A stretch of DNA of 63,995 bases, the filler included, from Chrysochromulina tobinii (lineage: Eukaryota), in assembly GCA_001275005.1 (NCBI GenBank). It is 7 parts of 7 records of this genome, joined end to end, with 100 filler letters (N's around TTAATTAATTAA, not from the genome) between each part and the next. Parts side by side here need not be neighbours in the genome. Positions count along the whole stretch, not along the records: positions 5,941 to 22,185 come from JWZX01000807.1; 6 more parts are not named here. The stretch is one strand, 5' to 3'. The notes under the pieces were generated by a model. It saw nothing but the letters and a program-made list of their open reading frames with translations. It was not told the DNA's origin and did not search any database. This document shows, one piece after another, positions 311-62,793 of this stretch (position 1 is its first letter; the number at the start of each line of letters is the position of its first letter). A program made the position numbers and the translations under genes.

Positions 311-444
311 GAAACACCATAGGGTAATTACCTGAGTGTTGAAACCCTCCCCCAAGGTCAAAATCTCGCGCCCCACTATGTAGAAACACCATAGGGTAAT
401 TACCTGAGTGTTGAAACCCTCCCCCAAGGTCAAAATCTCGCGCC
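311..444. repeat. 62-nt direct repeat, period 72 (311-372 and 383-444)
   Basis: GAAACACCATAGGGTAATTACCTGAGTGTTGAAACCCTCCCCCAAGGTCAAAATCTCGCGCC occurs twice. Confidence 0.9.
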
Positions 445-451
445 GCCGGGC

Positions 452-666
452 GTGAAATCACAGACCCCTGAGCCCTGTGAAATCACACCCCCGGGCGTGA
501 AATCACACACCCCTGCAAAATCACACCCCCGGGCGTGAAATCACAGACGGGGTGTGAAATCACAGGTGCCGCCTGCGAAATCAGCAAATCACAGGGGGTG
601 TGAAATCGCAGGTAGGTGTGAATTCATAGGTTCCTGTGATTTCACACCGCCCCACCTGCGAAATCA
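452..666. repeat. Cluster of (GT)GAAATCACA motifs in direct and inverted orientation, resembling transposon subterminal repeats
   Basis: About 10 GAAATCAC-like copies, with an inverted TGTGATTTCAC near 635-645; no convincing ORF. Confidence 0.6.
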
Positions 667-1305
667 TGGGACCCCACAAGTACCCTATGCTCTGCCACCT
701 GCCACCCACCAATTGCCACCCACGCGCCCCGCGGCCGACTCAGAAGAGGCCGCCCCCTCCCGTCCGATGAGGGATGAGGCATGAGCGTGTAAAGCACACG
801 CCAGGGAGGCACCGGACCCACGGACCGCCGTCACCGCCCACTTACACTAAGCATCGAACAAATCCGATACTCCACATACCGTACCGCCACGGCCAAAGAA
901 GCAAGCTTCTCACGTGACTTGCGCGCAAAGCAGGCCCCAGGCACATGCGTGTGTGCCGACGAGGCAGCATGCAGACGCGCGGCGAGGCACGGAAGCGCGC
1001 TCGAACGGTTCCAGTGTCCTCGTTGCATGTATGATCGTAAGCGCTGGAGCACACCCGGTTCCAGTGCCGTACCCGCTGCCCGGATTCGTCATCGTGATCT
1101 CAAAGATCTTAGAGATGAATAACGTAGTCGCCGTCGCACGCCTTTTGCGACGGTTGTGTACATGTACGACTCGAAAGCGGTGCGTCGGGCGGCCGTGCCG
1201 CTATCCAAGCCCCTTGCGTTATCGGGCGGGTCTCGCAGAGTCTGTTGACACATGAGAAGCTTGCACGGCACTCAAGTCGCTCCGAACGTGTCCTCCTCGC
1301 CGTCG

Positions 1306-11184: not shown

Positions 11185-14100
11185 TTACTCCGAGTCTCGG
11201 AAGAGTCCCGGAAGGCTCAGATTGCTGCCGAGATTGTTTGACGAGGCTGCCCTTCCTAGGAGCGCACGCCGCTGCAGCGCGCCGGTACGACGCGCGATCT
11301 CCCTCACGACCTGGTTGCGCTGATCGACGGTCAGTACCCCCTCCTGCATGGCCCAGTCGATGGCCTCGAGCGCGACGCCGTCAGAGCGTACCGATGAGCG
11401 GGAGAGCATGACCGCCTGGTTGTGATGGCTGATGGTGATCGTCATCGGCTTCTTGAGCCCAAATAAGGGTTCGAGCTCAAACGGCTCACCATCGACCTGC
11501 ATGGAGCATGCGATGAGGGAGGCCATCAGCATGCAATCAGGGAGGCCATCAGCATGCAACGAGGGAGGGTCATCAGCATGTGAGGGAGGCCATCAGCATG
11601 CAATGAGGGAGGCCATCAGCATGCAATGAGGGAGGCTGCGCATGCAACGAGGGAGGCCATCAGCATGCACGAGGGAGGGCCATCAGCATGCAACGAGGGA
11701 GGCCATCAGCATGCATGAGGGAGGCCATCGACCTGCATTGGCAAGCGCGTCGTGCCCTCCTGCGTGATGGTCACTGACGAGGCTTGGCAGAGACGGTGCG
11801 CCGATCCCTTGACAAGCTGTGTGCATGCAGACACATGCAGGCGCAGTCAGGCACACTCAGAGGCAAGCATAGGCAAACAGAGGCAATCAAGAGGCAATCA
11901 AGAGGCAATCAGACATCCTCGCAGAGAATCAGAGGCCATCATAGGCAATCGGAGGCCATCAGAGGCCATCAGAGGCCATCAGAGGCATCAGAGGCCATCA
12001 GAGGCCCAAACATCTTTCATGATAAGGCAATCAAAGGCAATCACCTGCGCGAGCCCAAGCTGCAGCACGCCCTTGATGGCGACCACCTCCAGCAGCCGAT
12101 CGTCCATCGAGGCGCTGACGAACCCTGACGAAACCAGCAGCCGATCGTCCGTCAAATGCCACGACGCGTCGCTGAAGCTCTTCGTGCGAGATCGCATCCC
12201 CCCCGCAGCTCCGCCGGAGCTCCCGCCCGCGAGATCGTTGCGAGATCGCATCCCGCCCGCAGCTCCGCCGGAGCTCCCGCCCACGAGATCGTTGCCGCAA
12301 GCGCTGCCGGTGCTTCCGCTCCGCACGTGCCTCGATGTCGATGCGCCGCCGCCGCCGCCGCCGCTGCCGCCGCTGCTGCCGTTACCCCTGCTGCTGCCGC
12401 TGCTGCTGCTGCTGCACCCAAACGGGTAGACGCCGGAGGCACTCGAAGGGCGCGGCGGCCCGAAGCCAGAGCTCACGGAGCGGCCGCGCACATCCCGTCC
12501 AAAAGCGTCATCAGCATCCGCCGCCGCCGCCGCCGCCGCTGCCGAGACTGCCGCCTCGGCGTACTCGTCGGACTGGTCGGGAGAGTCCATAGAGAGTCTT
12601 CGGTCCGTAAAGTCCATGGAGCTCGGGCGAGACATGGCGCGCGCCGACAAGTTATCCCCCGACCCCCCCATGCGGACACGCGCACCGATGGTGCTGTCTC
12701 GCCCTGCCGAGCACTCCCCTCCATCGCCCCCCTCGGGGGCCAGCTGGTGCGCAGAGGCGGTGCGGGAGGGCATCCGGGACGAGGCCTGAGAGGCACGGCC
12801 GCTCGTGGAGGCTGGGGCGGCGGACGGCGACGGGTGGACTTCCTCGTCGTCATCCCACTCACCTGTGAACGAGGGGGAAGGGGCGCCGTGGTGAGCACTC
12901 GCATGCAAGGCACGGAGGTCTCGTCGTCATCCCACTCACCTCCCCACAGGTCTGTTCCACCTGCATAGGACGCTATGTTGAGCACGATGATGCCCTCTGT
13001 GCCCTCGGGCAGCTCGTACCTGCCCAGAGGTGATCCAAGGCAATCAAGTGTTCCCATTCAATCCGAACCAATGCCATGCAATCCAATGCAATCCAATGCA
13101 ATCCAATGCTCGTACCGCTTCCCATCAGCGATCACCGTCAACTTCTTGCACACATGCTTGAAATCGCGACCATGTAGCAGCTGGCGCGCGCCGTAGCGCA
13201 GGTACATGAGCTTGTTCTTGAGGACGTTTGTGAATTGGTGCGGCTCCGACTGCCAATCAGTGGCAATCAGTGGCAATCAGTGGCAATCAGTGGCAATCAG
13301 TAGCAATCAGTAGCAATCAGTAGCAATCAGGCGCGGCTCCGACTGCCAACGATTGAGCCGTTCGAGACCTCGGTCAATGGTACTCAATGGCACTCAGCCA
13401 GGGCGCTCACTCAGTGGCACTCAGTAGCAATCAGCGGCACTCAGTGGCACTTACCTGCCGACGATTATGCCATTCAAGCGCCACGTTGGCATCCACACCT
13501 GTGGGGGGGGCGCCGTGGTGAGCACTTGCATGCTTGAGGAGCGCCACGTTGGCATCCACACCTACGCCAAGGTAAATCTGCATCGTAACCGTGACTGAAT
13601 CAGTAGCAATCAGTAGCAATCAACGGTTACCTACGCCAAGGTAATTCTGCATGATGATCTTACGAGCGGGTCGACGAGTATCACTCCCGCGCTCGGGACG
13701 ACGCTCGGGAGCCGTGATCAAGCTCTTGGCCACGTGGCTCTTGGCGACGCTCTTGGCGACGCTCTTGGCGAGGCTCTTGGCGACGCTCGGGCGGGGCGGA
13801 GGGACCGTTGCGTCCTCAAAGGCCACCTGATGAGGAACGTCATCCAGAGGCACTCAGAGGCACTCAGAGGCACTCAAGGGCGTGGTACAGTCTTCGAAGG
13901 CCACGTGGTTTAAGGCGAGCCGTTCCCTTTCGTGAGGGTCATCAGTGGTCATCGGAGGGTCATCATTAGTCATCGGAGGTTCATCAGTAGTCCTTAGAGG
14001 TCCTCAGAGGTCCTCAGAGGTCCTCAGAGGTCCTCAGACGTCCTCAGAGGTCCTCAGAGGTCCTCAGAGGTCATCAGCACACCTCCCAACGATCGAGCAG

Positions 14101-14931
14101 TGCCACTTGAGCAGAGTCAACCTCCTCGAGGAGATTGACGAAACTGCGTCCCATACGAGTGCCACCGCCCCATCCGAGCGCACGCGCAAGGTCATTCCCC
14201 GTGCCCAGCGGCAAGATGGCCACGGGCGGCGTGTACTCGAGATGTGCATTGTCCAGGAGGGAGAGCACCCAGCCTACGGTGCCATCGCCCCCACACACTA
14301 AGACGCGGAAGCGGCCGACAGTGCGGAAGGACTGGAGGGCCTGCTCGGCGTGCCCCAGCGACAAGTCCACCACCTGGTGCGCCGAGAGCAGCGCCTTGAG
14401 CTGCACGAGCGTTGCCTCGCCTTGCCGACCACCGCTGCCTCGGTTGATGAAGACGAGCAGCGGCGTGCGATCTCGCGCAACCTCCGCCGAGGGGCGATAG
14501 GTCCATGAGTTCTGCCAGAGCTGCGGCTGCAACGTCGGCGTGCGCAGCTCCGCTATGCTGTGGCGCACGCGCTGCGCGAGCGACGCGGCGCTTCGCAGCC
14601 GGAGCTTCTCCGAAGCGGCTTCGGCGCCCTTGGCTGGGGGGCTCGTGGGTGGCGTCGCCTCGCCAAAGTCGAGCAGCTGCTCGGGAAGGATGAGCCGCCA
14701 GAGGCGGGCGCGCGCCTCTTCCAGCTGCCGTGGATCAAGGTCGGGCGGCGTCGCTTGCGCGTGCATGATCGAGATGAGGTAAATCAGCGCGAGCGTGGCC
14801 GTGAGGAGTGCGATTGTCATGAGTGGCGGTGGGTCCGAGATCACCACCGGCTCGGGCTGTCGCGGCCAGGCAGCCAGGTCGGCGTGTGCAAATGGAGGGC
14901 CCACCATGCCGCCGTCCGCGAGTTCGTCCAT
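11185..14931 (-). CDS. DGK: Diacylglycerol kinase, 8 exons, ~838 aa (14931-14083, 13826-13631, 13498-13455, 13249-13116, 13019-12940, 12862-12045, 11816-11733, 11496-11185)
   Basis: Motifs PLLVFINRGSGG, GGDGTVGWVL, LPLGTGNDLAR, MQNYLGVGVDA, LNIASYAGG, DDRLLEVV and PMQVDGEP; all GT-AG introns, and phases join into one frame. Confidence 0.92.
12863..12910 (-). repeat. Shared intron 3' module TGCATGC..GCTCACCACGGCGCC-Y-rich-CACAG (representative copy, DGK)
   Basis: Other copies end at acceptors 13499, 18472, 19633, 19713, 20564, 20637, 22057 (ends AAG), 31507 and 31970. Confidence 0.9.
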
Positions 14932-15156
14932 GATGCGTGTGCAAAGCCGCCCACGCGCCGCACCAGGGACCCCCCTGGAACGCGGGACGGAGAGGAAGTT
15001 GACGGGAACACGGAAGGGCGACTTTACATGAACAGAGAGAATCATCACTCTCGAATCACGTTGCAGATGGGGATGTCTGTCTAAGAGACGGTTTCTCCTC
15101 CCGAAACCGTCCTTCCCTGCAACTGCCTTGCAACCCCAACGTCTTCGTGTAACGCC

Positions 15157-16596
15157 ATGCTAACGAGGCCAGCCTTCCTCGCGCCGCTCAACGTACCAGC
15201 CATCGCCGACGCGTGCGAGACAGTGGCATTGCCAACTCACGGGTCGCGTCGGTCACGCTCTCGGCGCCAGCGCTCCAACAAGGACAACCGAGGAAGAAGC
15301 CCGTCTTCCAAGAGCGTCAAGAGTCCGTGCGCATCTCCGCAGCAGCTCATGAGCCCCGGAAGCCCCACGCCCAAAAGCCCGTCTGCCAAGAGCGTCAAGA
15401 GTCCTTGCACTGGCGCATTTCCGCAGCAGATCATGAGCTCCGGAAGTCCCACGCCCAAGTTCACCGCTAGCAACATTGGCGTACGTCTGGTGGGTGCCGA
15501 GGCGGCCTCCCTCCACACGCATGCTGCTGCCCTCGAGCGCAAGGCGGCGCGTCTCCAGCAGCGGTCCGACCAGATGGCATCGCCAGCTCGCCCGACGGTG
15601 CACGAGCTCGTCAACGAATGGCAGCGTCTGAAGCAGCGGTCGGACGAAATGATGGTCATGCATGAGCACTTGGGCACTTGGATCTCGTCGATCTCGTCGG
15701 TCCAGTCACTTCGGACCAGGGGGGATTACTCTCTCCAGCCGCATGCCGATGCACGTGAGCTGCCCCCTACGGCAGTTGAGGAAGAGCCCGAGAGTGCCGA
15801 GGCAGAGGATGCCGACGATGAGGAGTCCGCCGTGCAGATGCATCTCACGCTGACCATCCCAAACGAATGCTCAGCGCAGGATGCCGACGATGCAGGGGCA
15901 GGGCCGCGCCGCCAGTGGCAGCCGCCCAGCTGCCCGCACGCTGCCCCCAAATCCGCTCGCCGCGGTAGCCCTGCGAAGGCCGGTGAGGATGAGCGCCGTG
16001 CCGAGCGTCGTGCAGAGCGTCGTGACGAGCATCGTGACGAACCCCGAAACGAAGCCAAGGATGAGCGCCGTGACGAGCGCTATGGCGCCCACTCGCAGCT
16101 CCTTGCGCTCCAACGTCAACTGATCCGCCGTGTCGATGCCCTGGAGGGGCGCTTTTGCACCGCCCCCTGGACGCCACCCCTCGCAGCCGCCTCACCGGCA
16201 CCGGCTGCCCTAGCAGATGCCTCACCGACCGGCGCGATGGGGATGCTCACCCCCTCGTACGGCGATGGTGCCAGCTTTGGCGTCAGCGTCGAGAGCTCGC
16301 TCGATCTGACTCCGGGTGCCCGGGACGGCGCCCATGATCGCGCCCAGGACGGCGTCGAGAGCTCGCTCGATCTGACTCCGGTGGCGCACGGGACGGCGCC
16401 CGGGACGGCGCCCAGGACGGCGCCGCGCACGGTTGCTGGGCGGCAGGAGCGAATCCGACGCGCATGCAAGCTCGAGGGGATCTCGTGCGCGAAGTGGATC
16501 TCGAGAGCGATCACGCTCAGATTCGATCTCGAGGCAGCGCTGCTAAACGCGCCCATCATGGCGCCTGCTTGCACGCTCGAGCGCGGCGTGCTGTAA
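15157..16596 (+). CDS. Hypothetical low-complexity/coiled-coil protein with internal duplications
   Basis: 479-aa ORF; SPSxKSVKSPC twice and VESSLDLTP twice. Confidence 0.6.
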   Translation: MLTRPAFLAPLNVPAIADACETVALPTHGSRRSRSRRQRSNKDNRGRSPSSKSVKSPCASPQQLMSPGSPTPKSPSAKSVKSPCTGAFPQQIMSSGSPTPKFTASNIGVRLVGAEAASLHTHAAALERKAARLQQRSDQMASPARPTVHELVNEWQRLKQRSDEMMVMHEHLGTWISSISSVQSLRTRGDYSLQPHADARELPPTAVEEEPESAEAEDADDEESAVQMHLTLTIPNECSAQDADDAGAGPRRQWQPPSCPHAAPKSARRGSPAKAGEDERRAERRAERRDEHRDEPRNEAKDERRDERYGAHSQLLALQRQLIRRVDALEGRFCTAPWTPPLAAASPAPAALADASPTGAMGMLTPSYGDGASFGVSVESSLDLTPGARDGAHDRAQDGVESSLDLTPVAHGTAPGTAPRTAPRTVAGRQERIRRACKLEGISCAKWISRAITLRFDLEAALLNAPIMAPACTLERGVL

Positions 16597-17159
16597 TCAC
16601 GCTGTGTGGCGCGTGTGACCTGAGAATGACCTGAGATATTGACTCACGGTGTGCGACGCCGACACGGAGTTTGGAGTTTCTGTCGCCATCGGAAACGGGT
16701 ACATCTAGATCTACGATCTAGTCGGCTGTGGTGGAAACGCCGACCTATACGTCCATGCTATACGAATACGTCCTACCGACAACCGAGGCGCCCGCGGGCG
16801 CGGCCGGCGAGCGGCGTCCGGTCTCTAGTACCGTCTACTGTTAACGTCTACTGTACACCGATCACCGTGTACCTGTACGTCGCCGACGACGTACGGGACG
16901 ACCAGGACCACGAGCGCCTTGCGCGCAGCTCGCACCTCTACTTTTGTAAACGATTTAAGGCGGAGGGATCATCAGCGCACAGCGGTACGTTCACAGTGTC
17001 TATGACTCGCGCGTCTTCGTAACGTCTTCGCTTGACTATATGTGAGTATGATTCTCGGTGAACATCTTCGAGCATGCTTTGTACTGGTGCAGCGGGGCGC
17101 GCGTGCACACGACATCAGCTGTAAACTCGTGCGGCACGCCGGAACATATTATGATCGGA

Positions 17160-20100
17160 TTACATTGAATTCAGGAGGACGATGACCACAACTACCACGA
17201 GAACTACGCAGCACACGCCGCAGCACATGGCATACTTCTTGAAGAAGAAGAATGGGTTGAACAGATTGAAGTCGATGCCCAGCCCGTCGAAGAACGAGGG
17301 GCGCACCGGGTTCGGAAGGAACGGGTGTTGGTTTGGCGGGTCACGTCCCTGGCCCACAGGGCGCTGGATCGCCTCGTATCTCGGGATGAGCTCGATCGTG
17401 AGGCGCACCGTGCCCTGATTGCCCATGTAATTCGGGTGCGTCGTCTGCACGAGCACGTTCTCCCTCTTCACACCGCCGCCGCGCCGCAGCGCCAGTTCAC
17501 AGATGGTCTTGAGCGTCAGTTGCGCCTCGCCGATGGCGTCGTTGGACGAGAGGATGTCGGCGTCCCAGAGCTGTATGAAGAGCCTCGGCGACTTTTCGGG
17601 CAGTGCCATCGGCCAAACCATCCGCCAAAAGAACTCCGCATCTGATGAGGGAGGTCATCAAGAGGCCATCAAGAGGTGATCCAGAGGCAATCAAGAGGCG
17701 ATCAAGAGGCGATCAAGAGGCGATCAAGAGGCAATCAAGAGGCGATCCAGAGGCAATCAAGAGGCGATCAAGGCAGCACGAACCGCCAGGCGATCGGTGG
17801 TGCACGTCCGTCCTGAGCATCGAATAGGGCTGGTGGCCGTGCGGTGTGATGGCTACGAAGACGTCCGACGTGCCACCGCCGCCGAAGAAGGACTCGTCCC
17901 GCGCTTGGACGTCGATCGCATCCCACACGATGACACGCAGCTCGAACATGTCGGTGGTCGGTGGCTCGATCGGGACCATCGGCTGGGCGATCGCGTACCT
18001 GATGAGAGAGGCACTCAAAGCTGATGAGTGAGGCACACAGAGCTGATGAGGGAGGCAATCAGAGCTCATCGGCTGGGCGATCGCCTACTTCTTCTCCAGG
18101 ATCTCAATCTTGCACACGATGAAGCCCTGGAAGAGGGGCAGAGGGGCATGCGCAGGGGGGGTGAGTGGCAATCAAGAGCAATCCATCGACGGAGTGGCAA
18201 TCAATAGTAATCAATAGCAATCCAGAGCAATCAAGAGCAATCCATCGACTGAGTGGCATGGACCGGGGGGCTCAGCGGCCACCAAGAGCAACCACGTGGC
18301 ACTCCATCTCACCTGCGCGTTCGTATTGCCAGGGTTGGTGAGCGGCCGCATCTCCTTCGGCAGCGCGTCGTTCTGCTGCTTGGTCTTCCACGTCTCAGAA
18401 AAGTAGCGGTCCTCGAGGTCGATGACCGTCTTGCCCAGCAGCGATTCGCTCAGCAGCTGGTAGTCCCATACCTGTGGGGGCGGGCGCCGTGGTGAGCGCG
18501 TGCATGCTGGGGGCTGGGATCGAATCCCTCCTCGGAATCACACACCTCGAGATGTAGCCGAGATTGGGTCATCAGAGGTCATCAGAGGTCATCAGCACAC
18601 CTCGAGATGTAGCCGAGATTGGCCGGGCAGGATCGCCGACAGCTCGAAGGATTGGTAGAAATCGGGCTCGAGCGAGGGCGGCAGCGCAATGTCGCGCGTG
18701 GTGCGCTCCTGACCCTCGACGTTGTAGACCTTTAGGAAGGGCTCGGGCTCTTTTCCACCCGCCCTCGGGGCGAGTGACGTGGCGCCATACACATGCACGC
18801 GCACGCGGCACGGCTTCTCGGCGAAGAGCTTACGCAGGTTGGCCGGAGGGTCCTCTTTGAGAAAGAGCTTGAGCTCCTCATCCCCCTCATACCTGATGAG
18901 GGAAGCCATCAGAGCTGATGAGGGAGGCCATCAGAGCTGATGAGGGAGGCCATCAGAGCTGATGAGGGAGGCCATCAGAGGTCATCAGAGGCAATCAGAG
19001 CTTGAGCTCCTCATCCCCCTCATACCTGATGAGGGAGGCCATCAGAGCTGATGAGGGAGGCCATCAGAGGCAATCAGAGCTTGAGCTCCTCATCCCCCTC
19101 ATACCTGATGAGGGAGGCCATCAGAGGTCATCCGAGGCCATCCGAGGCCATCCGAGGCAATCAGAGGCCATCCGAGGTCATCCGAGGTCATCCGAGGTCA
19201 TCAGCAGTCATCCGAGGTCATCCGAGGTCATCCGAGGTCATCCGAGGTTATCCGAGGTCGTCCGAGGTCATCAGCAGCGCTCGTACTTGATGACGCGCAG
19301 CTTCATCTTGAGCAGCCCCTGGGAGCGCGCAGGCCTCCCGAATTTGATCGGGAATAAGTCGCGCGCAGTCTGCAGCCCCTTGGCGAGAAGGTTCTGCTTA
19401 TACGAGGACGTGGTCGACTCGGGTGCTTTCATCGAGAGAGGGAACAATTGGAAGGGCAGATCATCTTCGAGAAGCTTCTCCATAGGATAGGGCAAGATCT
19501 CCTCCTCTGCCGCACGCGCTTCTTCGTCCTCCTCCTCTTCGCCCCCACCCTCGTCCGGTCCATCGCCTGGCGCCGGCGCGGCGGCCGCGCCCTCCTGCAG
19601 CTCCGGCATCTCGATCGTGCGTGGCCCCAAACCTGTGGGGAGAGGGAGCGCCGTGGTGAGCATCCATTGCATGCGTGCAGCTCCGGCATCTCGATCGTGC
19701 GTGGCCCCAAACCTGTGGGGAGAGGGAGCGCCGTGGTGAGCATCAGTTGCATGCGTACCTGGCACCGGCGCGACATTCTTTCCCGCCGAGACACTGAGCG
19801 CCTTTGAGCCGTTGGTGGCGCGCGCGACCGACGAGAGGAAGAGCTCATCAAGCTTCTCCTGCGTGGACAGAGGCGGAATGCGAGCACTCAGTGGCTGAAT
19901 GCGAGCACTTAGTGGCCATCAGAGGCCATCAGCGGCCCTCAGCGGCCCTCAGAGGCCATCAGAGGCCATCAGAGGCCATCAGAGGCCATCAGAGGCCATC
20001 AGAGGCCATCAGAGGCCATCAGAGGCCATCAGAGGCCATCAGAGGTCATCAAAGGCGCTCCCTACCTCGTTAGGCGACTTGACGATTTGGAAATGGCCAC

Positions 20101-22166
20101 CCTGCACCTTCTCCTTTTTGATCTTCTCGTCCCGCTCCTTCTCCTTCTTCTGCGCCTCCTCCTCCGCCTCCTTCATCTTGCGAGCCTTGGCCTCTTTGAT
20201 CTTCGCCTGCTCTTCGGGCATGTGCTCGAGCAGGTTGATGGCCGTGATGCCCATCACCGGATCCCAGTCATCGCCCACAAACGGGATGATCTTGCCTGAT
20301 GGCAAGGGCAATCAATGGCAATCAATGGCGATCACGAGCTTGCCTGCTTCGCGCACGCGTACGCCCATCCACCCTGATGGCAATGGCCATCAATGGCAAT
20401 CAATGGCCATCAATGGCCATCAATGGCCATCAATGGCCATCAATGGCGAGCGCAAGCTTGCCTGCTTCGCGCACGCGTACGCCCATCCACGGTGTGTAGA
20501 GCTGCGGCTGCGTCGGCAGTAAGACCTTAAAGTATCGGGTCTCGAGGATGTTGATGTCCGTACCTGTGGGGAGAGGGCGCCGTGGTGAGCACTTGCATGC
20601 AAGGCCTCCGGGTCTCGAGGATGTTGATGTCCGTACCTGTGGGGAGAGGGCGCCGTGGTGAGCACTTGCATGCAAGGCCTCCGGGTCTCGAGGATGTTGA
20701 TGTCCGTACCCGTCCGAAGTTGCGTCCCCGTGATGGACGAGCCGTGGTCGGGGATGCGCCATTCACGCTCCTCGGCTTGCTCATCGCCGTACTCAAACTC
20801 AACGTATCTGATGAGGGGGGCAATCAATGATGTCATCAGCGGCCATCAGTGGCCATCAGTGGCCATCCGAGGCCATCAGAAGCCCATAGAACGTACGGCG
20901 AAGTGAGGAAGCAATCAGAAGCAATCAGAAGCAATCAGAAGCCATCCGATGCCATCAGAAGCCAATAGAACGTACGGCGAAGTGAGGAAGCAATCAGAAG
21001 CAATCAGAAGCCATCCGAAGCCCATAGAACGTACGGTGAAGTGAGGAAGACGGGAGCCCCGAGGACCTCTCGCGGTGCAATCACGGGGTAATCACGGGGT
21101 AATCACGGGGTAATCTCGTACGGCGAAGTGAGGAAGACGGGAGCCCCGAGGACCTCTCGCGGTGGCACGTCGCGACAGCCAACCAGCTGCACCTCGATCA
21201 CGTACGGCCGCATCTCGGGCCGCAGATAGCCCAGTGCACTCACGCCCTCCGTCAGATGGTACTTCGAGAGCTTCGCCGCCTGAGAGCCGCATGCACACAG
21301 TGGCACTCAGTGGGCACTCAGAGGGCACTCAGAGGGCACTCAGCGGGCACTCAGCGGGCACTCAGCGGGCACTCAGAGAGCACTCAGAGAGCACTCAGAG
21401 GGCACTCAGAGGGCACTCAGTGGCACTCAGTGGGGCAATTAGAGACGCAATCAGCGCTCCTCACCTGGGAGGAGAGGTCGACGATGGCAGCACTCTTCGT
21501 GCCATCCGGTGCGTCAAGGCTCTTGGGTGGCTGGTAAGCCCGCAGCTCGAAGGAGCAGAGAAGGAACCCGACGGGGGTCGGGTCATCATCCCCGCCAGCA
21601 TCGAAGTCGAGCTCGGCAAACTTGGGATCGTACAACGGCATCCATGTGGGCTCTCCCGCGCTCCTGATGAGGGGGGGGCAATCAGATCTCATCAGAGGTC
21701 ATCATCAGATGCAATCAACGGCATCCATGCGGGCTCTCCCGCGCTCCTGCTGTAGAAGACCGACACGTACTTAGTGTACGGCCATCAGACGCAATCAGGC
21801 GCAATCAGGCGCAATCAGGCGCAATCAGACGCAATCAGACGCAATCAGACGCAATCCGTCGCCATCAGCAGCGCAAGTACTTGTTGTAGAAGACCGACAC
21901 GTTTTTGGTGTACGGGCCGCTCGGGGCTAATGTACGCCCCATGACAGTGTCACTTGGAGCGAGGTCCTGAAGCGCAGAGAGGCCAAAAGCGGCGCCCGCG
22001 TCGTAGACGCAGACCGAGACCTTTGAGGCGAACGTGAGCTCGCCCGGGAGATGCACCTTGAGGGAGGGGAGGGGGGGTGGCGCCGTGATGAGCACATGCA
22101 TGCTGGGAGATACACCTTGAGGGCGAGCTCCCCGGGAGATACACCTTGAGGGCGAGCTGCTGGTAC
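17160..22166 (-). CDS. Ferlin-family multi-C2-domain tail-anchored protein, 3' part, at least 14 exons, 5' end truncated
   Basis: Motifs LGKTVIDLEDRYFS, FELRVIVWD, TDVHHRS..FFWRMVWP, IQLWDADILSSNDAIGE, GQGRDPPN..LPNPVRP and a C-terminal TM helix. Introns 17642-17783, 17999-18088, 18127-18312, 18472-18600, 18893-19286, 19633-19758, 19859-20065, 20296-20461 (GC-AG), 20564-20709, 20808-21121, 21280-21464, 21664-21880 and 22057-22144 give a consistent frame. Confidence 0.88.
20564..20709 (-). repeat. Intron made of two identical 73-nt units (28-nt downstream-exon copy plus 45-nt 3' module)
   Basis: Exact tandem repeat; removing it restores ...LRTG|TDINILETRYF... Confidence 0.9.
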
Positions 22167-22185
22167 CTGAGGGAGGGGAGGGGAG

Positions 22186-22285: not shown

Positions 22286-25200
22286 TGGTTCGAGCGGCCG
22301 CGCCCCCGCCGGCCGCGCCCCCGCCGGCCGCGCCCCCGCCGGCCGCGCCGCCGCCGCCGTCCGTGCCCATGCCGCCGCCGTCCGTGCCCATGCCGCGGGC
22401 CTCGTGCCCATGCCTACCTATGGCACCACCGTCCGACTCTGCCTTCAGCGGAACTGCCTTCGGTTTCATGGCTGGGGGCAATGGCGGTGGCGGCAGCGCC
22501 CCTGTGTCACCGTCGACCGCTGTCGGCGACTCTGCCTTCGGCTTCATCGCCGCCGCTGAGCCGTCACCGCCGCTGGTTTCGGCCTTCGGCTTTTTTGATG
22601 GCGGTGGCGGCAGCGCCCAGGTATCGCCGTTGGGCGGTGGCGGTTCTGCGTTCGGCTTCATAGATGCTCAGCGTGCGGCGGCTATCGCTGCGAGCCTCGA
22701 CATCTCCAGCCCTGTAAACCAAACCTTACCACCACCTTTGCAATTCTTACCACCCGCGCAATCGCCACCTATGGGGCCGTCACTGTGTGTGTGCTGAGTG
22801 ATCATCATACGTGTGCGTGTGTGTGTGCGCAGCAGCAGCAGTACGGTCAATACGGCGGCGGCGGCGGGCAGTACGGCCAGCCGCAGCAGCCGCAGTTCGC
22901 CGCCGAGCAGTACGGTCCATACGGCGGCGGCGGCGGGCAGTACGGCCAGCCGCAGCAGCCGCAGTTCGCCGCCGAGCAGTACGGTCAATACGGCGGCGGC
23001 GGCGGGCAGTACGGCCAGCCGCAGCAGCCGCAGTTCGCCCAGCCGGAGAGCAGTACGGTCAACACGGCGGCGGCGGCGGGCAGTACGGCCAGCCGCAGCA
23101 GCCGCAGGTTCGCCCAGCCGGCAACCCACGAGGTGCGCCCGATTCGCGTGCAATCAGAGGTCATCAGATGTATTCAGAGACCCTCAGCAGGCCTCACCGG
23201 CCTCAGTGGCACTCAGAGGCTATCAGAGGTCATCAAAATCAATCAGAGACCATCATTGGCGATCAGTGGCCATCAGTAGCCATCAATTGCAATCAGTGGC
23301 AATCAAGAAGGCACCGGGTTCCAAGATTGCCCCGATGGCCACGACGCGTGCTGAGCGTGCGCCGTGTGCGTGTGCGTGTGCGCGTGTTCGCAGCACTTGC
23401 AGGCGACGCCTGGGCAGTCAGCGGCGGCTGCGGCCAAGGCGGCGGCGGACAAGGCGGCGGCGGCGGCAAAGGCGCAGCAAGAGGCAGACGACGCTCAGCT
23501 TGTTGCAGCTCTCGCTGCGAGCCTCGCCATCTCCGGCCCTGTCCCACCACCTCCCCCGCCATCTCTAGCCGGACCGAGGCTGGTCATGTTGCCACTTTCT
23601 TGCCAAACGGCGGAGCGCCTCGTAGTCAACACGGATCCTCTCATGCCCCAGAGGACCCCTTCGGAGCGTATAGCAGCAGACCTCGGCATTCCAGTTGAGG
23701 ACGTACGGGCAAGCCTCGTCGCGGAGCAGGTACGGGAGGACCGCCTCGCAGTTGAGGACGTACGAGCGAGCCTCGTCGCAGTCGAGCACGGCGGGAGTGG
23801 CCCTGAGTGCGGAATGGCCTCTTCCGCCAGCGTGAGGCCGAGCTCGGAAATGTACGACGACATGGACCTCGAGGACCTGAAAGAGCTCGCTGGAAAACGT
23901 GGCATCAAAGTGGTAGGCAAAGGCTGGGCCACATGCTGCCCGCCGAACGGGAACAAAGCGGACATCATAAAGGCACTTGAAGCAGAGCCGCCTGCGCCAC
24001 CCGCGCCTCCGCCGCCGCGACCTAAGCCCCCGCCGCCGCGACCTAAGCCCCCGTCGCTCTGGGAGCCTCCGCCGCCTCCGCCACCCGCATCACCGCCGCC
24101 GAAGAAGAGGGCGTCCGTCGTGCACCTGAGCGAGCACCAGGCGCTCCCGAAACTCGTGGCGCTCGACAAGCCGCTCGTCGACGCGCTCCGCTCGAGCGCC
24201 GTCAAGCTCGTCGACGCCGACCGCATCCGCGACGGCACCATTGCAAAGATCATGCGCCGGCAGGACCTCGAACAGTTCGAGCGCGAGCGCGGAGTGCGGC
24301 TCTTCTTGTCGCCCGAGCGCTCGATCGAGGTGCACGGCAGCTACGAGCGCGAGATCGCCTCGCTGACGTACGGATGGGACACCCCCGACGGCGACGACCC
24401 GACGGGCGAGTACCTGGCCGCGGTCCGCCGGTACCTGCTGAGCGCCTTGGGCGAACACGTGAAAGGCGTCTTCTGGGACTGCCCCTGCCTGCCGCAGGAG
24501 CCGCGCAGCGCGAGCGAAGAGGCGGTGTTCGGCGAGGCGCTCGGCGTGATGGCGCTCACGTACGCGTCGGTGCTCTCGACGACGGTGATCCGGCACACCC
24601 GAGTCCCCGCCCGCCCCGCGTGTCTCGACGGGGTGGTCGTGGTTTACGGCGGCGCGGTGACCGAGCAAGACGTGCGCAGCGGGCTCGCCAGCCACGGCGC
24701 GCTCGCAAGCGTGTGGCGCGACGAGAAGGTCAACCGGTGGCGCGCGCGGTTCCAGAGCCACGCCGAGGCCGAGCGCGCGGCGGCCAGAGGGCAGGCGATT
24801 GTCAACGGCGCGACGCGCCTGCAGACGCTCCACGTCCCGCGCCCGTATGGCGCGCGCGGATGGTGCTGTGAGGAGACCGGCGTGGCCACCGAAGGGGTCG
24901 CTCAGAGTGCCTACTTTCCGAAGCTGAAGGCGATCCTCGACCGGCTGCCGCCCAAGTTGGTCGACATTGACGGCGCGGCGCCCGAGGCGGCGCGCGAGCA
25001 GTACGGTGGGAGCGAGGGCAGGGCACCTCGCATCGAGCGCGTGCGCTCGAGCATCCGGTCGGCGGCCTTTTCGAGCGAGGCCGACCGTGCGAAGGTCGTG
25101 AAGCTGTTCGATGACTACATCACCAAGATTGCCATCGCGATGGCGGGCTCGGGCGAGGGGCAGGCCGGCGAGTACGTCGGCGAGAGGAATGCGGCCGGGG

Positions 25201-31100: not shown

Positions 31101-34100
31101 TTACGCTGAGTTACGCCGTAGGTGCACTGCGTCAATGTGCGCCATGAGCCGCTCCTCCATGGCCCGTTGCGAGGCATCATGGGCGAAACGTTCATCATGG
31201 AGCAGTCGCTTCACCCGCCGTTCGGTGTCCAGCGCCCGGCCCAACCAGCCCTCGTCCACGTCGTTTTCACGCTCCTCCTCATCAGGGTGGCCGCGCATGC
31301 GGATGGCCGCCTGCAGCCTTCCCCACAAGCTCTTCGGATGCTCGTCAGGTGGCGCGTGCTCCTCCACGAGCCGTTGGTAACTCGCGCCGTCGTGGGCACG
31401 GTCGGCGTGCGATCGGAGAAGTCCGGAGATTGCCTCGAGCTCCGCCGCGAGATCGAGGCGAGCGCGCCGAAAGAGAACATGGGATCGGACGATGGCGTAG
31501 TCGTACCTGTGGGGAAGCGGGGCGCCGTGGTGAGCGCATGCATGCACGTTACGCCTGGCGGAGCCGGCTGTGGGCGTAGTCGTACGAGTCTGAAACGACC
31601 GCGATCAGGATGTTGAGGAGCATGATCATCACGATGAAGGTGTACGCTAGGAAGAGGCCGACTAGGAAGGGTGTCTGGAACCACTCGCGCTCAAAGTCGC
31701 CAATCATCAGCCGGTAGACCGAGATGAGCGTCTCCGACACGGACACGAAGGCCACATCGACGTCGTCCTCGCCCACCACCACGTCCTCGACGCCTTCGTC
31801 GGCACGAACCAAGGGGCGCGCCGAGCCTCCGTCGGCCTCGAACGGCTGGCCCAGACGTCCTCTGTACGCGAGGATGTAGAACATGTTGCCGAAGGCGAGC
31901 ATCACGAGGAGCATGATGACCAAAAACGAGCGGATATCTAGAGCGATCTGCACGAGGCACAGGACGTACCTGTGAAGAAGCAGGGCGCCGTGGTGAGCGC
32001 ATGCATGCATGGTCGGATATCTAGTGCGATCTGCACGAGGCACAGGACGTACGTGGCAAACTTCTGGTTGATCACTTTGACGAATTTCAGCAGCTCGAGG
32101 TAAAGCAACCCCTGGGTCACCGCGGCCAGTGGCGCCAGGTACTCGTGCTCGATCCGTACAGGCTGCGTGGCCATCTTGGCCGTGAGCGCGAGGGCGCCTA
32201 CCAGGAGCAACCCGAGCAGATTTTGGAAGTCGGAGAGCCAAGCGAGGGCTGAGAGGGATTTGGACGGCGGCTCAGGCGCATCCGGCAGGTCCGCAGGCGT
32301 CAGGACGCCCTGTATCTGTGCGGCGTGCTCGCCGAGATGGTGCATCGAGAATGCCTGCAACAGCTCGCGCAGCAGCCGCACGCCACTGAGAGCCCCTACT
32401 GTGGCGACGAGCGCGCTGTCGAGCGGGCCGAGCGGGCCGTCATATCGCAATACACGCGGCCAGAGGGGTGTGGTGATCGCGAGCAGCGCGAGGATCCCCA
32501 CACCGTCCAGGAGCAGGACGGCCATCGAGAGTGGCCGGGTGAGCTTGGCGTCGAGCACCGCCACGAAGAGATCGGCTCGGACGAGGCGCTCGGTGTCGGA
32601 GGCACTGAGCGCGAGTGTTGCTGGGACGAGTCCATCGAGTGCGATCGCCTTCGCCTCGAGCGCATGCCGTTGCACGCGCGTCATCGGCGCTTCGGACACC
32701 TGCTCAATGAAGAAGATGGCTGCCTGCTGCGAGCGCTGCCCGCCCGCGCCAGCGCCCGATAACCGCCTGACCAGCCACGTGTTGTCGACGTAGTCGAGTG
32801 CCATGTGCTGTACCAGAATCTGTTGGACCGCCGGCAGCGAAACGAGCTCAGCACGCTTGGCGACACTAGGCATGTCGAGCACGGCTGCGACGATGGTAGA
32901 TAGCGGCGGCTTGAACTTATGCGCCGACGGTGCTGACGACACTTCTTCCTGAGCTGCGCCGGCGTCGACGGCCTCTTCCGGCGATGCTGTCGTGAGCGTG
33001 GGTACCACCACGCCAGAGCCCACGCCGGCGCCCATGCCGGCGCCCACGTCAGCACCGCCGCCGGTGGCGGCGCGGGATGGTGTATCGGTCAGCACCACGG
33101 CGAGTCCGGCGGCGCGAAGGTGGCTGCTTGCGCTCCTGCCGCCAGCCTCTCCACCTCCACCGCCTGCTGCGCTGCTCCCAGCGGCGACGCCGCCGAAGGA
33201 TGCGAGAAAGTCGAGCACGGGTACTCCGCGACGGAAGCGTCCAAAGAGTACCCTCTCGATCGCTTGCTTTCGCTCGCGCAGCCTCGCCAAGTTCGCGCCG
33301 CCGCCGCCACTGCCGTCGCCGTTGCTGCCGCCGTCTCTCTTGCCGCCACGTTTGCTCGCTCTCGCATTCCTCCTCTCCGCAATCCTCTCTCGGATCCTTT
33401 CGGATGCGCTGCTCGCCGTAGGCTTGGCACCCACCCGAGTCCACACGGTAGGCCGGTAGAATGGCGCCGCGTCGAGCACGCCCCCCACAACGCCCCCGAC
33501 TCCCCCAACGACGCCCCCCACGACAGAGCCAACGCCCCCCACAACGGCACCCAAAGCATTGACCCCCCCCAGCCCCGTGCGTTGAGTGGTCAGCAGTGGA
33601 CGGTTGCTGTTCATCGAGTTGTACAACGTCTCCTCCTCCCAGCAGTCGCGCTCCTTGCAGTACTGGAATTGCGCGCCGTGGCCGCACCAGCCGGGCACCA
33701 CGCACCACGTCGGCGTCTTCACGATCACAGGAGGACCCTCTGGCCTCGCTCTCTCGTCCAGGCGGTGGCGGTGGTTGACGAGCTGGAGCTCGCCATTCAC
33801 AAAGTCCGCAATCCAGTCCTCCGACAATAGGCCCCGCACACCTCCTGGTGTGCTGAAGCGCCCGTCACTAGCTATCGGCTCCTCCTCTACGCTACTCGGC
33901 TCGCGGACAACGATGGCGTCGAAGTCGGGGGCGTTCTCGTCCGGGTGGCCTATCCGCAGCGTGTTCTCACGCGCCTTGCTGAAGGTGAGAGTGACGCGAT
34001 GGATGCCGATGATGATGGACTTTTGGGCCTTGGGGTTGCCCGTACGTGGGAAGCTGATGAGCTCCTCAGGCCCCTCGTTCAGCGAAACGTACGCGTCGCG

Positions 34101-44195: not shown

Positions 44196-44243
44196 TATAG
44201 GATTGCGCGATTCCCCCCCAGCACGTTTGCGGCTCCGAACCAC

Positions 44244-45233: not shown

Positions 45234-46038
45234 ACCGCTCAACCAGCGAAAGCAGCGGGCGTGCCAGCGGCCCAACAGGTCAACGGGTCGACAGGAGATA
45301 TGTGTGACTCAGACGACAGAGCTCCTTGCGGGGCGGGCGCTGGGCGGGTCGAGCTGGCGGCTCCAAGGAGCTTGCATGGGAGGCCGGTGCGGTACTGTGT
45401 GGAGCGTGTGTTTGTGTAGTGAGGCGTGCGCGGGGCGGTGCGGCGCACGCGACGGCGCTGTCGTCGGCCGAGCCGCGAGCGCGAGGCGCATATTCCAATT
45501 TCCATGATATGCGGGCGAGCCGATGCCGCATCGGGGCCGCTCAACGGGGGCCCCGGCGGTGGCAGCGCGGGGGCGGCTTCGGTGGTCTCGTGTCGAGTCC
45601 TGGTGGAACGGATTTCTATTAAATGGTCAAAGACCGATTTCGTCTATCTGGTACATTCGTCGCATGTCGTGTGCCGCAGGCGCACGGCAGCCTGAGCGGC
45701 CGTTGGGACGCCATGTCGTCCCAGCGCGCCGTCGCGAGCGCGTGGAGCGCTGACGAGCCCGAGTCCGGAGGCTCCGCGTCGGCGTGCGCGTCGGCGTGTC
45801 GCGGCACGGGGCAGAGGACACTGGTGCCGACGACGCGGCGGATGCCCGACGGCGCGGGACGTGCGGCCCAATGAAGGTCTTGGGGGACGGGGCGACGTCT
45901 TGGGCGTTACCGTTGCTTCGGAGGCACCCCGGGGAATCCCCCGAGGTTACTCCTCACGAGCGCACAACGCCCAAGACGGCACCCCGGGGAATTCCCCGAG
46001 GTTACTCCTCGCGAGCGCACTCGACATGCGCATTTTGG

Positions 46039-48720: not shown

Positions 48721-48726
48721 ACCGCT

Positions 48727-61302: not shown

Positions 61303-62793
61303 ATGTCGAGATCGAGCTGCGCACTACTCGTCGTCGGCGCGGCGGTGGTCGCCGGTGCTTTCACCGGCGGCGGCCTTTCCGTGGTCGTGCGCTCTCCGGT
61401 GGCAGCACTACGTCGTGCCGCCGTCAGCCCGACAATGGAATTCATTCCTGGCGAGACGTGCACCGGGGAGCGTGTGGCGGTTGTCGGCGCCACTGGATAC
61501 ATTGGCAAGGCTGTTGTTCGCGACCTGGTACGACGAGGCTATCCAACGAGTGCGGTGGTGCGCGATGCCGCCCGCGGTGCTGCTGAGCCCAAGTTCGAGG
61601 GTGCCACCATCGTCGAGGCCGACGTGTGCGACCCGAGCAGCCTGGCCAAGAGTGCTGCCTTCAGCAAGGGAGGCGTGGACGTCGTTGTCAGCTGCCTGGC
61701 GAGCCGCTCGGGATCGAAGAGCGACTCGTTCGCCATCGACTACCAGGCCACGCTCAACAGCCTCAACGCCGCGCGCGCGGCCGGCGCGCGCCACTTTGTG
61801 CTGCTCTCGGCCTACTGTGTCAAGTCGGCGGAGCGCAGAGATCCGTACGCGTTGCAGTTCCAATACGCAAAGATGAAGATGGAGGAGGCGCTGCGTGCGC
61901 AGAGCGACATGACGTACAGCATCGTGCGCCCGACCGCCTTCTTCAAGTCCGTCAGTGGGCAGGTGGAGGTCGTCAGCGGCGGTGCACCCTTTGTCTATTT
62001 TGACCTCGGAGGCTCACCGTACAAGTCATCACACGGCGACGGTAAGTGCGCCGCGTGTAACCCTATCTCGGAGCCCGACTTGGCGGCCGCGCTGGTGGAC
62101 ACGATCGCCGACCCGTCGAAGTGCAACGCGCTGTGGAATCTCGGAGGGCCCGACGTCGGCCTCTCGATGCGCGAGCAAGGCGAGCTTGTGGCGGACGTTC
62201 TTGGGAAGGAGGAGGCGAAGCTGCTTGGCGTACCGATCGGCATCTTCGATGTGATCATCAACGGGCTGCAGGCGAGTGCCCTCTGAGTGCCGCTCTGATG
62301 GCCAATGATTGCCTCTCGTGACCACTGATGGGCGACTGTGCTCATCCACGGGCTTCAGTTCTTAGCTGACACGTTCAAGTCCCCGAAGCTCGAGGATGCT
62401 GCCGAGTTCGGGCGCATCGGGCGCTACTACGCGATCGAAGACATGCTGACCACCGACCCGTCCGAAAAGTACGCAGCGCATGCTTCTGATCGCCTCAGAA
62501 TGCTGCCCCTCGGAGTGCCCTCTAATTGCCCTCTAATTGCCCTCTAATTGCCCTCTAATTGCCCTCTAATTGCCCTCTAATTGCCCTCTAATTGCCCTCC
62601 GAGTGCCCTCCGAGTACCCTCTGATTGCCAATGAGTGCCGCTGAGTGCCTTCCTCATCAGGTACGGTCGCACCACGCTGCGCGAGCACTATGCACGGATC
62701 GCAGTTGAAGGTCAGGAGTATGATCCGTACACGAGCATGTTTGGTAGCAAGAAGGCCAAGGAGGACTTCGCCAAGCAGGCCAAAGGCGTGTGA
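61303..62793 (+). CDS. DVR: Divinyl chlorophyllide a 8-vinyl reductase, plastid-targeted, 403 aa (exons 61303-62271, 62359-62468, 62661-62793)
   Basis: [65 protein letters not shown]; signal peptide with an AF motif; one GC-AG and one GT-AG intron. Confidence 0.92.

What the first reader, a model, noticed from the sequence alone, without database searches (positions are those of the whole stretch)
11185..22185. Candidate intron-generating system: introns built from flanking-exon copies plus shared splice-signal modules
Seen: 20 complete introns in DGK and ferlin (plus 2 in the TRP-like gene and 2 in DVR) restore continuous frames when removed. Most start with a copy of the downstream exon start, which supplies GT, or contain a copy of the upstream exon end. 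Copy lengths vary (5, 8, 13, 14, 20, 22, 27, 28, 36, 39, ~66 nt). The rest of each intron is a shared acceptor module or a tandem decamer array. Established: Introners in Micromonas and Aureococcus are non-autonomous DNA transposons with short, family-fixed target duplications, and tandem duplication of AG|GT is a classical but rarely observed intron-gain route. Inference: a repeated, recent process duplicates local exon sequence and adds splice signals copied from elsewhere, for example by templated insertion during break repair or an RNA-templated step. I cannot check whether this lineage is already covered by Introner surveys.
Basis: partly seen in the sequence, partly recalled or inferred. 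Interest (0 to 1): 0.92.

Follow-up and report, generated by a model that had tools for sequence, protein, structure and literature searches.

The report
Algal introns copied from neighbouring introns
In a freshwater alga, many spliced introns consist of a 10-50-base copy of the exon they sit in plus a piece shared with other introns, and they likely arise when DNA copying briefly jumps to a nearby intron and back, a route to new introns that transposon-based surveys would miss.

Summary
Confirmed and extended. Removing the 20 introns restores stop-free DGK and ferlin frames; 13 junctions are listed at exact length in two RNA runs; 15 of 20 introns hold a copy of a flanking exon end (controls 3 of 342). 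The organism is Chrysochromulina tobinii-like (inferred). In 133 further loci, 109 of 185 acceptors of one shared module are preceded by a GT-starting copy of their own downstream exon, 10-53 nt long (0.8 expected). Two of 19 comparable introns are present in one strain and absent in another, ferlin intron 1 among them. Near-identical modules cluster on the same strand within 5 kb, and one intron carries a piece of a neighbouring gene's exon copy, joined at a 5-nt microhomology. Best reading: introns seed introns by microhomology-primed template switching; selection keeps the frame-neutral products. DNA versus RNA template is unresolved. No fixed target duplication, terminal repeats or autonomous element was found. 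C. tobinii scored zero families in a published Introner survey whose filters exclude this anatomy. An earlier scan note reports flank-duplicated introns in another protist (different family, unchecked).

The parts
17160..22185 (-). Ferlin gene, 3' part (871 codons after splicing; 5' part beyond the N gap)
11185..14931 (-). Diacylglycerol kinase gene
   Evidence: DAGK_cat E 8.8e-26
22167..22185 (-). 3' end of a further, truncated ferlin intron (pyrimidine tract + AG)
   Evidence: also in L055
22057..22144 (-). Ferlin intron F1: copies of both exon ends + module A; ABSENT in orthologue L055
   Evidence: not among the RNA rows shown
21664..21880 (-). F2: array + copy of upstream exon end + copy of downstream exon start + module B; acceptor unit in 3 copies in L055
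21280..21464 (-). F3: decamer array, no exon copy
20808..21121 (-). F4: repeated upstream-exon copies (longest exact match 40 nt) with arrays, module B end; first 87-nt unit absent in L055
20564..20709 (-). F5: 2 x 73-nt unit (28-nt downstream-exon copy + module A); single unit in L055
20296..20461 (-). F6: GC donor, 5-nt downstream copy, 29-nt upstream-exon copy, arrays; spliced as one intron
19859..20065 (-). F7: decamer array, no exon copy
19633..19758 (-). F8: module A, 37-nt downstream-exon copy, module A
18893..19286 (-). F9: arrays, two 27-29-nt downstream-exon copies, repeated module B
18472..18600 (-). F10: array + 22-nt upstream-exon copy + module A
18127..18312 (-). F11: degenerate arrays, no exon copy
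17999..18088 (-). F12: 22-nt downstream-exon copy (1 mismatch) + module B x3
17642..17783 (-). F13: array + module B, no exon copy
13827..14082 (-). DGK D1: arrays, diverged ~15-nt downstream copy, module B end
13499..13630 (-). D2: array between 8-nt inverted arms, 22-nt upstream copy, 22-nt downstream copy, module A
13250..13454 (-). D3: arrays; 17-nt duplication spanning the acceptor
13020..13115 (-). D4: 8-nt downstream copy + array
12863..12939 (-). D5: 20-nt downstream copy + module A (textbook case)
11817..12044 (-). D6: arrays, no exon copy
11497..11732 (-). D7: 14-nt duplication across AG|GT flanking a ~23-mer array
31970..32052 (-). TRP-like gene intron: 39-nt downstream copy + module A
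31507..31585 (-). TRP-like gene intron: 13-nt downstream copy + filler + module A
62272..62358 (+). DVR intron 1: GC donor, array, ends in a 10-nt near-copy of the upstream exon end
62469..62660 (+). DVR intron 2: 5-nt downstream copy, arrays, module B
23133..23393 (+).
   Evidence: open frame after removal; no RNA laid

Best explanation
These are real spliceosomal introns of one repeat family, and they likely arise by microhomology-primed template switching, in which a DNA strand being extended through an exon would jump to another family intron, copy part of it and re-anneal 10-50 nt back in the exon. The product is exon copy + foreign intron piece + exon (shown). The template is preferentially a same-strand intron within about 5 kb, less often a distant one (shown as excess similarity; direction shown for two cases). 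Selection would keep only products that splice cleanly: a copy starting at GT plus an imported acceptor (commonest), or an imported donor plus an AG from a duplicated upstream exon end (inferred). The same process and plain tandem duplication then lengthen existing introns (shown between strains). I take genomic DNA at a nick, break or stalled fork as the likeliest template and a host repair or replication polymerase as the enzyme (inferred; no enzyme identified).
For: Anatomy: 109 of 185 module-A and 49 of 108 module-B acceptors have a downstream-exon copy (0.8 and 1.8 expected); length 10-53 nt, not fixed; in 67 of 106 the upstream exon does not end in AG, so the acceptor is imported. Empty sites: F1 absent in L055; an 81-nt intron with a perfect 33-nt duplication present in L118 and absent in two assemblies L017/L052. 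Local templating: near-identical 50-nt modules in 12 of 201 same-strand pairs within 5 kb, against 58 of 22,938 between contigs, 0 of 36 beyond 5 kb and 0 of 45 on opposite strands (7 of 41 vs 0.87 expected). Source to recipient: the L062 intron ending at 12571 runs from its own 22-nt exon copy, through a 5-nt microhomology, into the exon-copy part of the intron ending at 10042, which lies in the adjacent gene across a stop codon. Near-identical whole introns in unrelated genes L058/L071 share about 13 nt across the junction. Both ends vary: core-only and antisense copies with 9-36-nt duplications not starting with GT occur in frame in an exon, after a stop codon, and against the gene's sense (L038, L013, L064, L108), so GT start and AG end look selected, not mechanistic. 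Duplications span exon-intron borders (F4, F10, D3; L045), so the target was DNA or pre-mRNA, not mRNA.
Against: Strong sense bias (313 sense, 11 antisense among 324 classifiable of 584 elements) and all 33 elements in the window inside 4.3 kb of introns: neutral intergenic copies, which a DNA-level process should leave, are scarce. The L023 intron 1981-2046 is a whole intron with exact GT and AG ends moved 1.2 kb within one gene with no duplication beyond the shared CAG, which fits an RNA intermediate better. Microhomology with the family consensus at the left junction is >=2 nt in only 13 of 85 cases and was not tested against a null. Why a ~24-nt core stays so conserved and is favoured as template is unexplained. 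Only 2 traced source-recipient cases; about 0.65 Mb of non-redundant sequence examined, picked by the motif itself; gain versus loss of the 2 polymorphic introns is not polarised by an outgroup.
Confidence: 0.5

Rival explanations
1. RNA-templated version: a reverse transcriptase copying pre-mRNA, or repairing a break, switches onto an excised or nascent family intron RNA, starts at its 3' AG, and switches back downstream (the reverse-transcription template-switching idea of Roy and Irimia, known to me only as cited in PMC3609843 and PMC3443670).
For: Sense bias and confinement to genes; fixed 3' end with variable 5' truncation in intron-forming copies; same-gene copying and the exact whole-intron move in L023; first exons tend to be longer than last exons (813 vs 372 nt median, p=0.08).
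Against: Antisense and 3'-truncated copies with duplications; copying between adjacent genes; 3' bias not significant; no RT-like frame passed the motif screen in the loci held.
Confidence: 0.24
2. Non-autonomous non-LTR (SINE-like) element inserted by target-primed reverse transcription, with long variable target duplications and 5' truncation, mobilised by a LINE not in my sample.
For: Variable duplication, constant 3' end, 5'-truncation series and shared upstream fillers in unlinked loci (16 pairs vs 1 shuffled). Non-LTR introners are reported (about 5% of classified cases; PMC12130899 passage).
Against: No single master: many upstream variants, and fillers traced to a neighbour's exon copy; proximity effect; 3'-truncated copies; no poly(A) or repeat tail at the 3' end; no long element between duplications up to 10 kb apart among 263 acceptors; no Rfam match above gathering score.
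Confidence: 0.14
3. Classical Introner (short fixed duplication) followed by tandem duplication of acceptor + exon start and precise loss of the first intron.
For: Acceptor- and donor-spanning tandem duplications do occur and differ between strains (F2, F5, L033); F8 has the shape of the intermediate; marine Chrysochromulina MAGs carry Introners, one family with 4-bp duplications.
Against: Only 3 of 109 module-A copies extend across a duplicated acceptor; 106 start at the exon's first base. It would need a precise loss at most loci. Filled and empty alleles differ by one clean step. It explains neither traced fillers nor antisense copies.
Confidence: 0.08
4. Pure tandem duplication of AG|GT exon segments, with the shared modules being convergent splice signals that evolved afterwards.
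For: D7, F1 and DVR intron 1 have duplications across or ending at AG; the genome is rich in tandem duplications.
Against: 67 of 106 sites lack an upstream AG; the full module sits beside a perfect 33-nt duplication in a strain-specific intron; the core occurs antisense and after a stop codon, where it cannot be a splice signal.
Confidence: 0.03
5. Assembly artefact of short-read metagenomes.
For: Repeat-rich contigs; no long reads seen.
Against: RNA joints at exact lengths; the same structures in an assembly from another sample; copies diverge from their exons (mean identity 95.7%, 39 of 106 perfect).
Confidence: 0.01

Closest known systems
Introners that carry one splice site and take the other from the target duplication (Symbiodinium: carries 3' site; marine Chrysochromulina sp. 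family 5: carries 5' site; PMC9860276 Fig. 2 legend)
   Same: Repeat family creating frame-neutral introns; one splice site imported, the other from duplicated exon; both polarities occur here; same genus.
   Different: Duplication 10-53 nt and variable instead of 4 bp (3-9 bp for DNA-transposon types); no terminal inverted repeats on module A; no end-to-end similarity; about half the intron is locus-specific; local parent-child copying.
Daphnia pulex new introns attributed to staggered double-strand breaks (PMC4202315 passages)
   Same: Polymorphic new introns with direct repeats shared with an adjacent exon; later internal duplications lengthen them.
   Different: Daphnia repeats are 4-12 bp and the inserted DNA mostly has no known source; here repeats are longer and the insert is a recognisable piece of another intron, so the process feeds itself.
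Intron gain by tandem genomic duplication of AGGT (PMC3443670 passage)
   Same: Intron 5' part is a copy of the downstream exon and supplies GT.
   Different: Acceptor and branch region are imported in most cases; genome-wide family rather than single events.
Fungal introner-like elements, same-gene duplications and Hypoxylon sister introns (PMC3609843, PMC8469720 passages)
   Same: Sense-oriented, gene-confined intron multiplication; same-gene copies; no transposon hallmarks.
   Different: Hypoxylon sister introns insert seamlessly without duplication; ILEs are near-identical over their length and fold stably; module A does not fold better than shuffles (z -0.6 to +0.7).
Template switching in reverse transcription / spliceosomal retrohoming models (Roy and Irimia 2009; not read, cited in PMC3609843)
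   Same: Predict an intron's 3' end joined precisely to a new exon position.
   Different: Described there as proposed models; retrohoming would not by itself give long duplications (own reasoning).

Membership tests
Introner (broad sense: repeat family creating introns) | Many similar sequences in introns of unrelated genes | tested here: met
Introner (broad sense) | Spliced precisely | tested here: met
   13 of 20 joints listed in two RNA runs
Introner (broad sense) | Recent activity (empty sites in close relatives) | tested here: met
   2 of 19 comparable introns present/absent in 7 orthologous pairs; a 20th difference is a tandem unit count; direction not polarised
Introner (survey definition, PMC9860276) | Similarity between introns reaches both intron ends; low-complexity families filtered out | tested here: not met
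   5' 10-53 nt are locus-specific exon copies in 106 of 185; criteria read. A few whole-intron pairs would pass (L058/L071, L023)
TIR DNA-transposon Introner (MITE-like) | Short, family-fixed target duplication | tested here: not met
   Continuous range 10-53 nt (A) and from 11 nt (B)
TIR DNA-transposon Introner (MITE-like) | Terminal inverted repeats and fixed termini | tested here: not met
   5' ends variable; 3'-truncated copies; module B is only a 22-nt hairpin (z -2.2)
SINE / non-LTR Introner | Variable target duplication and 5' truncation | tested here: met
SINE / non-LTR Introner | Constant 3' end with poly(A) or simple-repeat tail | tested here: not met
   No tail; 79 of 292 cores lack a pyrimidine tract + AG by my cut-off, several with clear duplications
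SINE / non-LTR Introner | tRNA/5S/7SL-derived head or autonomous partner with matching 3' end | tested here: inconclusive
   No Rfam hit above gathering in 11185-22185; no long element or RT motif frame in ~0.8 Mb held; whole genome not available
Fungal ILE / reverse-splicing type | Seamless insertion without duplication | tested here: not met
   Duplication in the majority; L023 is the one clear exception
Fungal ILE / reverse-splicing type | Only collinear with transcription | tested here: not met
   313 sense to 11 antisense by a codon model; manual check confirms antisense copies in L038, L064, L108 and window 23133-23393, several others were chance motifs or misclassified
Tandem genomic duplication of AG|GT | Both splice sites come from the duplicated exon segment | tested here: not met
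   Upstream exon ends in AG in 39 of 106 only
Polymerase-theta / MMBIR-type templated insertion | Microhomology at switch points and templates near the break | tested here: inconclusive
   Proximity met; microhomology clear where the source is known, >=2 nt against consensus in 13 of 85 with no null
Polymerase-theta / MMBIR-type templated insertion | Dependence on the polymerase | not testable with these tools
   needs genetics

The most novel reading that the evidence does not exclude
A transposon-free, self-propagating intron-generating system: existing introns act as templates that are copied piecemeal into neighbouring and distant exons by host template switching, each event leaving a 10-50-nt exon duplication that supplies the missing splice site. 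It would be active today in Chrysochromulina tobinii populations, would account for a large share of the species' introns, and is invisible to Introner screens. Parent-child links can be read from the exon fragments that introns carry along.
Probability: 0.45. Interest if true: 0.95.

Novelty: new variant of a known kind. Interest (0 to 1): 0.86.

Why it matters
Where new spliceosomal introns come from is a long-standing question; recent surveys propose that ongoing gain is primarily due to transposons (PMC12130899 abstract). Here a cultured, sequenced alga scored as having no Introners shows ongoing, family-based gain with an anatomy that those screens exclude by design. Each intron records its insertion site, a rough age (divergence of the exon copy) and sometimes its parent, so the DNA-repair and RNA template-switching models become directly testable genome-wide and in culture. 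If exon copies decay, such introns would later look source-less, like most gained introns elsewhere.

Tried and rejected
No whole genome was held, so counts come from 133 motif-selected metagenome loci. Viral-contig scans: 5 hits, 4 of them chance matches in low-GC phage-like contigs and 1 a true module at the end of a phage-like contig, probably chimeric; the longer motif gave 0. 27 GTDB hits were all chance matches without the pyrimidine tract. Search for long elements bounded by duplications up to 10 kb apart and for RT motif frames: nothing convincing. Rfam: 9 sub-threshold matches, all far below gathering. Folding of module A: not above shuffles. 3' positional bias: p=0.08, 13 first and 20 last exons, inconclusive; intron phase 21/18/11. 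Intergenic depletion by a GC proxy: 8 of 135 cluster flanks vs 193 of 1422 background bins below 58% GC, weak; of 31 isolated clusters nearly all lie between long sense frames. The codon model's 'noncoding' class (159 of 584) is unreliable next to short exons. The systematic source-recipient search gave 36 hits among 36,483 pairs: 3 of the 4 cis hits are tandem units of one intron, most trans hits are chance overlap with the common upstream motif; only the L062 pair (and weakly L062/L020) is informative. Summed contig depth over modules is 100-fold or more above unique sequence in DNA run X1 but is not a copy number. A micro-exon inside F6 was considered and rejected: the RNA joint skips 166 nt. 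Literature: 10 searches (introner+Chrysochromulina; intron gain+tandem duplication+haptophyte; introner+non-LTR+target site duplication; Chrysochromulina+intron+genome; intron gain+double-strand break+direct repeats+new introns; template switching+reverse transcription+intron gain+spliceosomal retrohoming; intron+duplication of downstream exon+acceptor+algae; templated insertion+polymerase theta+intron gain; Emiliania huxleyi+introns+tandem repeats+splice sites; introner+variable length+target site duplications+microhomology+template switch) listed no description of this family; the library lacks most subscription papers.
Full report
OBSERVATION. The region holds two minus-strand genes, a ferlin (3' part) and a diacylglycerol kinase. 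I placed 13 and 7 introns by hand. Removing them gives stop-free frames; without removal every frame has 33-65 stops. RNA contigs of runs X12 and X13 both show joints of 132, 142, 90, 186, 129, 394, 126, 207, 166, 146, 314, 185 and 217 nt, the predicted lengths of DGK intron 2 and ferlin introns 13 to 2 (15 rows shown, 2 repeat noise, 9 hidden). In one search one RNA contig length fitted four introns to the base in three runs. All 13 ferlin junctions align without a break to P0001 and P0002 (71-72% identical), and 10-12 of 13 to the nine other long homologues. Fifteen of 20 introns hold an anchored copy of an exon end (score >=8) against 3 of 342 control pairs. The TRP-like and DVR introns also check out.

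ORGANISM. Named homologues include Prymnesium parvum (ferlin, 47%) and Diacronema lutheri (DVR, 71%). A protein read from locus L070 is identical to C. tobinii KOO25585.1; three more of the 10 queried proteins cluster with C. tobinii entries and one with C. parva. The window's DNA is in mixed-culture runs and carries the same modules, so I infer C. tobinii or a very close relative.

ANATOMY AT SCALE. I dropped 7 loci as chance or non-algal hits and kept acceptors with 150 nt upstream and 100 nt downstream; alleles of one site may count twice. Module A is a ~24-nt core (GCATGC, 5 variable bases ending in G, CTCACCACGGCGC), a variable pyrimidine tract and CAG. Of 185 unique acceptors, 109 have an upstream copy of their own downstream exon (score >=10; permuted mean 0.8). 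106 start exactly at the exon's first base, 91 of these with GT; copies are 10-53 nt, mean identity 95.7%, 39 perfect; 101 of the 106 introns are 63-99 nt; copy and filler lengths are anticorrelated (rho -0.63), as a minimum intron length would produce (gapped re-measurement). The upstream exon ends in AG in only 39 of 106, so the acceptor is imported. Module B (decamer array ending in CCTCATCAG) shows the same in 49 of 108 (1.8 expected; some are tandem units). A longer form joins donor, decamers and core; in L039 and L058 it carries the donor and takes AG from a 14-16-nt duplication of the upstream exon. The two modules are thus parts of one composite family. Unlinked introns share fillers (16 pairs vs 1 shuffled).

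RECENCY. In L055, an orthologue from another sample with 19 exon differences in 985 nt, ferlin intron 1 is absent and the exon is continuous; introns 2-7 are shared but differ in array length and in copy number of exon-plus-module units. L118 has an 81-nt module-A intron with a perfect 33-nt duplication that two assemblies (L017, L052) lack. Over 7 orthologous pairs, 17 family introns are shared and 2 are present/absent. I read these as gains because of the near-perfect duplications, but have no outgroup. P0008 and P0009 (52-53% identical) are 1026 and 1442 aa proteins from contigs of 30.5 and 10.2 kb and run through 12 of 13 junctions. P0017, from one of the same sources, reads into a DVR intron, so these look like unspliced calls and those relatives likely lack the introns (inference).

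WHERE THE COPIES COME FROM. Elements are sense-biased (313 to 11; background 417 to 418), neighbours within 800 nt share a strand in 394 of 408 cases, and they are clumped (139 of 235 2-kb bins empty, 62 expected; loci were motif-selected). In the window all 25 arrays and 8 cores lie within the 4.3 kb of introns of five genes. Near-identical modules are enriched on the same strand within 5 kb: 12 of 201 pairs against 58 of 22,938 between contigs; 0 of 36 beyond 5 kb; 0 of 45 on opposite strands. Two cases give direction. In L062 the intron ending at 12571 begins with its own 22-nt exon copy, then at a shared CTCTC continues with bases that belong to the exon copy of the intron ending at 10042, in the neighbouring gene 2.5 kb upstream. 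In L023 the intron at 1981-2046 begins with a copy of the exon that follows a different intron of the same FtsH-like gene and shares that intron's filler: a whole intron moved. L058 and L071 hold near-identical whole introns in unrelated genes whose junctions share about 13 nt. Copies that need not splice break the GT...AG rule: an antisense core with a 34-nt duplication kept in frame (L038), a tract-less core after a stop codon (L012/L013), antisense copies in L064 and L108, and an antisense array in the window's intron 23133-23393.

MECHANISM. Shown: exon copy + foreign intron piece; variable duplication; variable ends; local same-strand excess; strain differences; later growth by further insertions and tandem duplication. 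Inferred: a strand extending through an exon switches by microhomology to a family intron, copies part of it and re-anneals upstream; selection keeps frame-neutral outcomes. I favour a DNA template (0.5) because of antisense copies, 3'-truncated copies and copying across a gene border. An RNA template (0.24) explains the sense bias, the scarcity of intergenic copies and L023 better. A SINE-like element (0.14) is not excluded without the whole genome. No enzyme, long element or RT frame was found.

COMPARISON. What I read: passages and supplement rows of PMC9860276 (the supplement was cut when stored) and of PMC12130899 (files 13 and 14 not searched); passages only of PMC4580454, PMC4202315, PMC3443670, PMC3609843, PMC8469720. 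Marine Chrysochromulina MAGs carry Introners, one family with 4-bp duplications. C. tobinii is listed with 0 Introner families in PMC12130899, and appears once, in the genome list, in the searched part of the PMC9860276 supplement. The 2022 pipeline requires similarity at both intron ends and filters low-complexity families, which removes this anatomy. It works like an Introner that borrows one splice site from a target duplication and like Daphnia's repeat-flanked new introns, but fails the defining tests of MITE-type, ILE-type and pure-duplication introns, and meets only part of the SINE tests. Ten literature searches listed no description of it; the library is incomplete, and I could not compare sequences with the marine families. 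The gene names 'TRP-like', 'MORN-repeat-like', 'FtsH-like' and 'LRR' rest on my reading of the translations, not on a family search.

VERDICT. Real, active, and anatomically outside the described Introner types that I could check. Filed as a new variant of a known kind, with a 0.45 chance of being a transposon-free, self-propagating route of intron gain. Interest 0.86.

Noticed in passing
window 23133-23393 (+): Intron of a MORN-repeat-like gene with a decamer array in antisense orientation; removal leaves an open frame; an in-frame TAG lies near 25324 in the repeat region.
   Followed up: partly
L038 11110-11480 (+): Antisense module-A cores have become coding sequence: repeated units and a 63-nt in-frame insertion with a 34-nt duplication inside a coiled-coil frame.
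   Followed up: partly
L004 3001-3060: True module A at the very end of a phage-like IMG/VR contig; probably a chimeric join with algal DNA.
   Followed up: partly
window 44226-45234 and 47732-48721 (+): Two similar tandem paralogues of a cysteine-rich protein gene.
   Followed up: no
window 58567-60500 (-): Frame resembling a retrotransposon gag region, cut by the N gap; not tested against families.
   Followed up: no
window 430-670, 49255-49620 and 50940-51240: Other intergenic short-repeat tracts (9-10-nt units) unrelated to the intron modules; part of 50965-51283 recurs in L059 at 86%.
   Followed up: no
window 12180-12300, 15300-15460, 16270-16430: In-frame tandem duplications of 30-80 nt inside exons, suggesting a generally high rate of local duplication; strain pairs differ by such units too.
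   Followed up: partly
window 13585-13630 (-): DGK intron 2 starts with 8-nt perfect inverted arms enclosing a short array, a snap-back-like signature.
   Followed up: no
window, six places: The window is a concatenation of contigs joined by N runs with a spacer; many of its genes appear intronless while ferlin and DGK hold 20 introns.
   Followed up: partly
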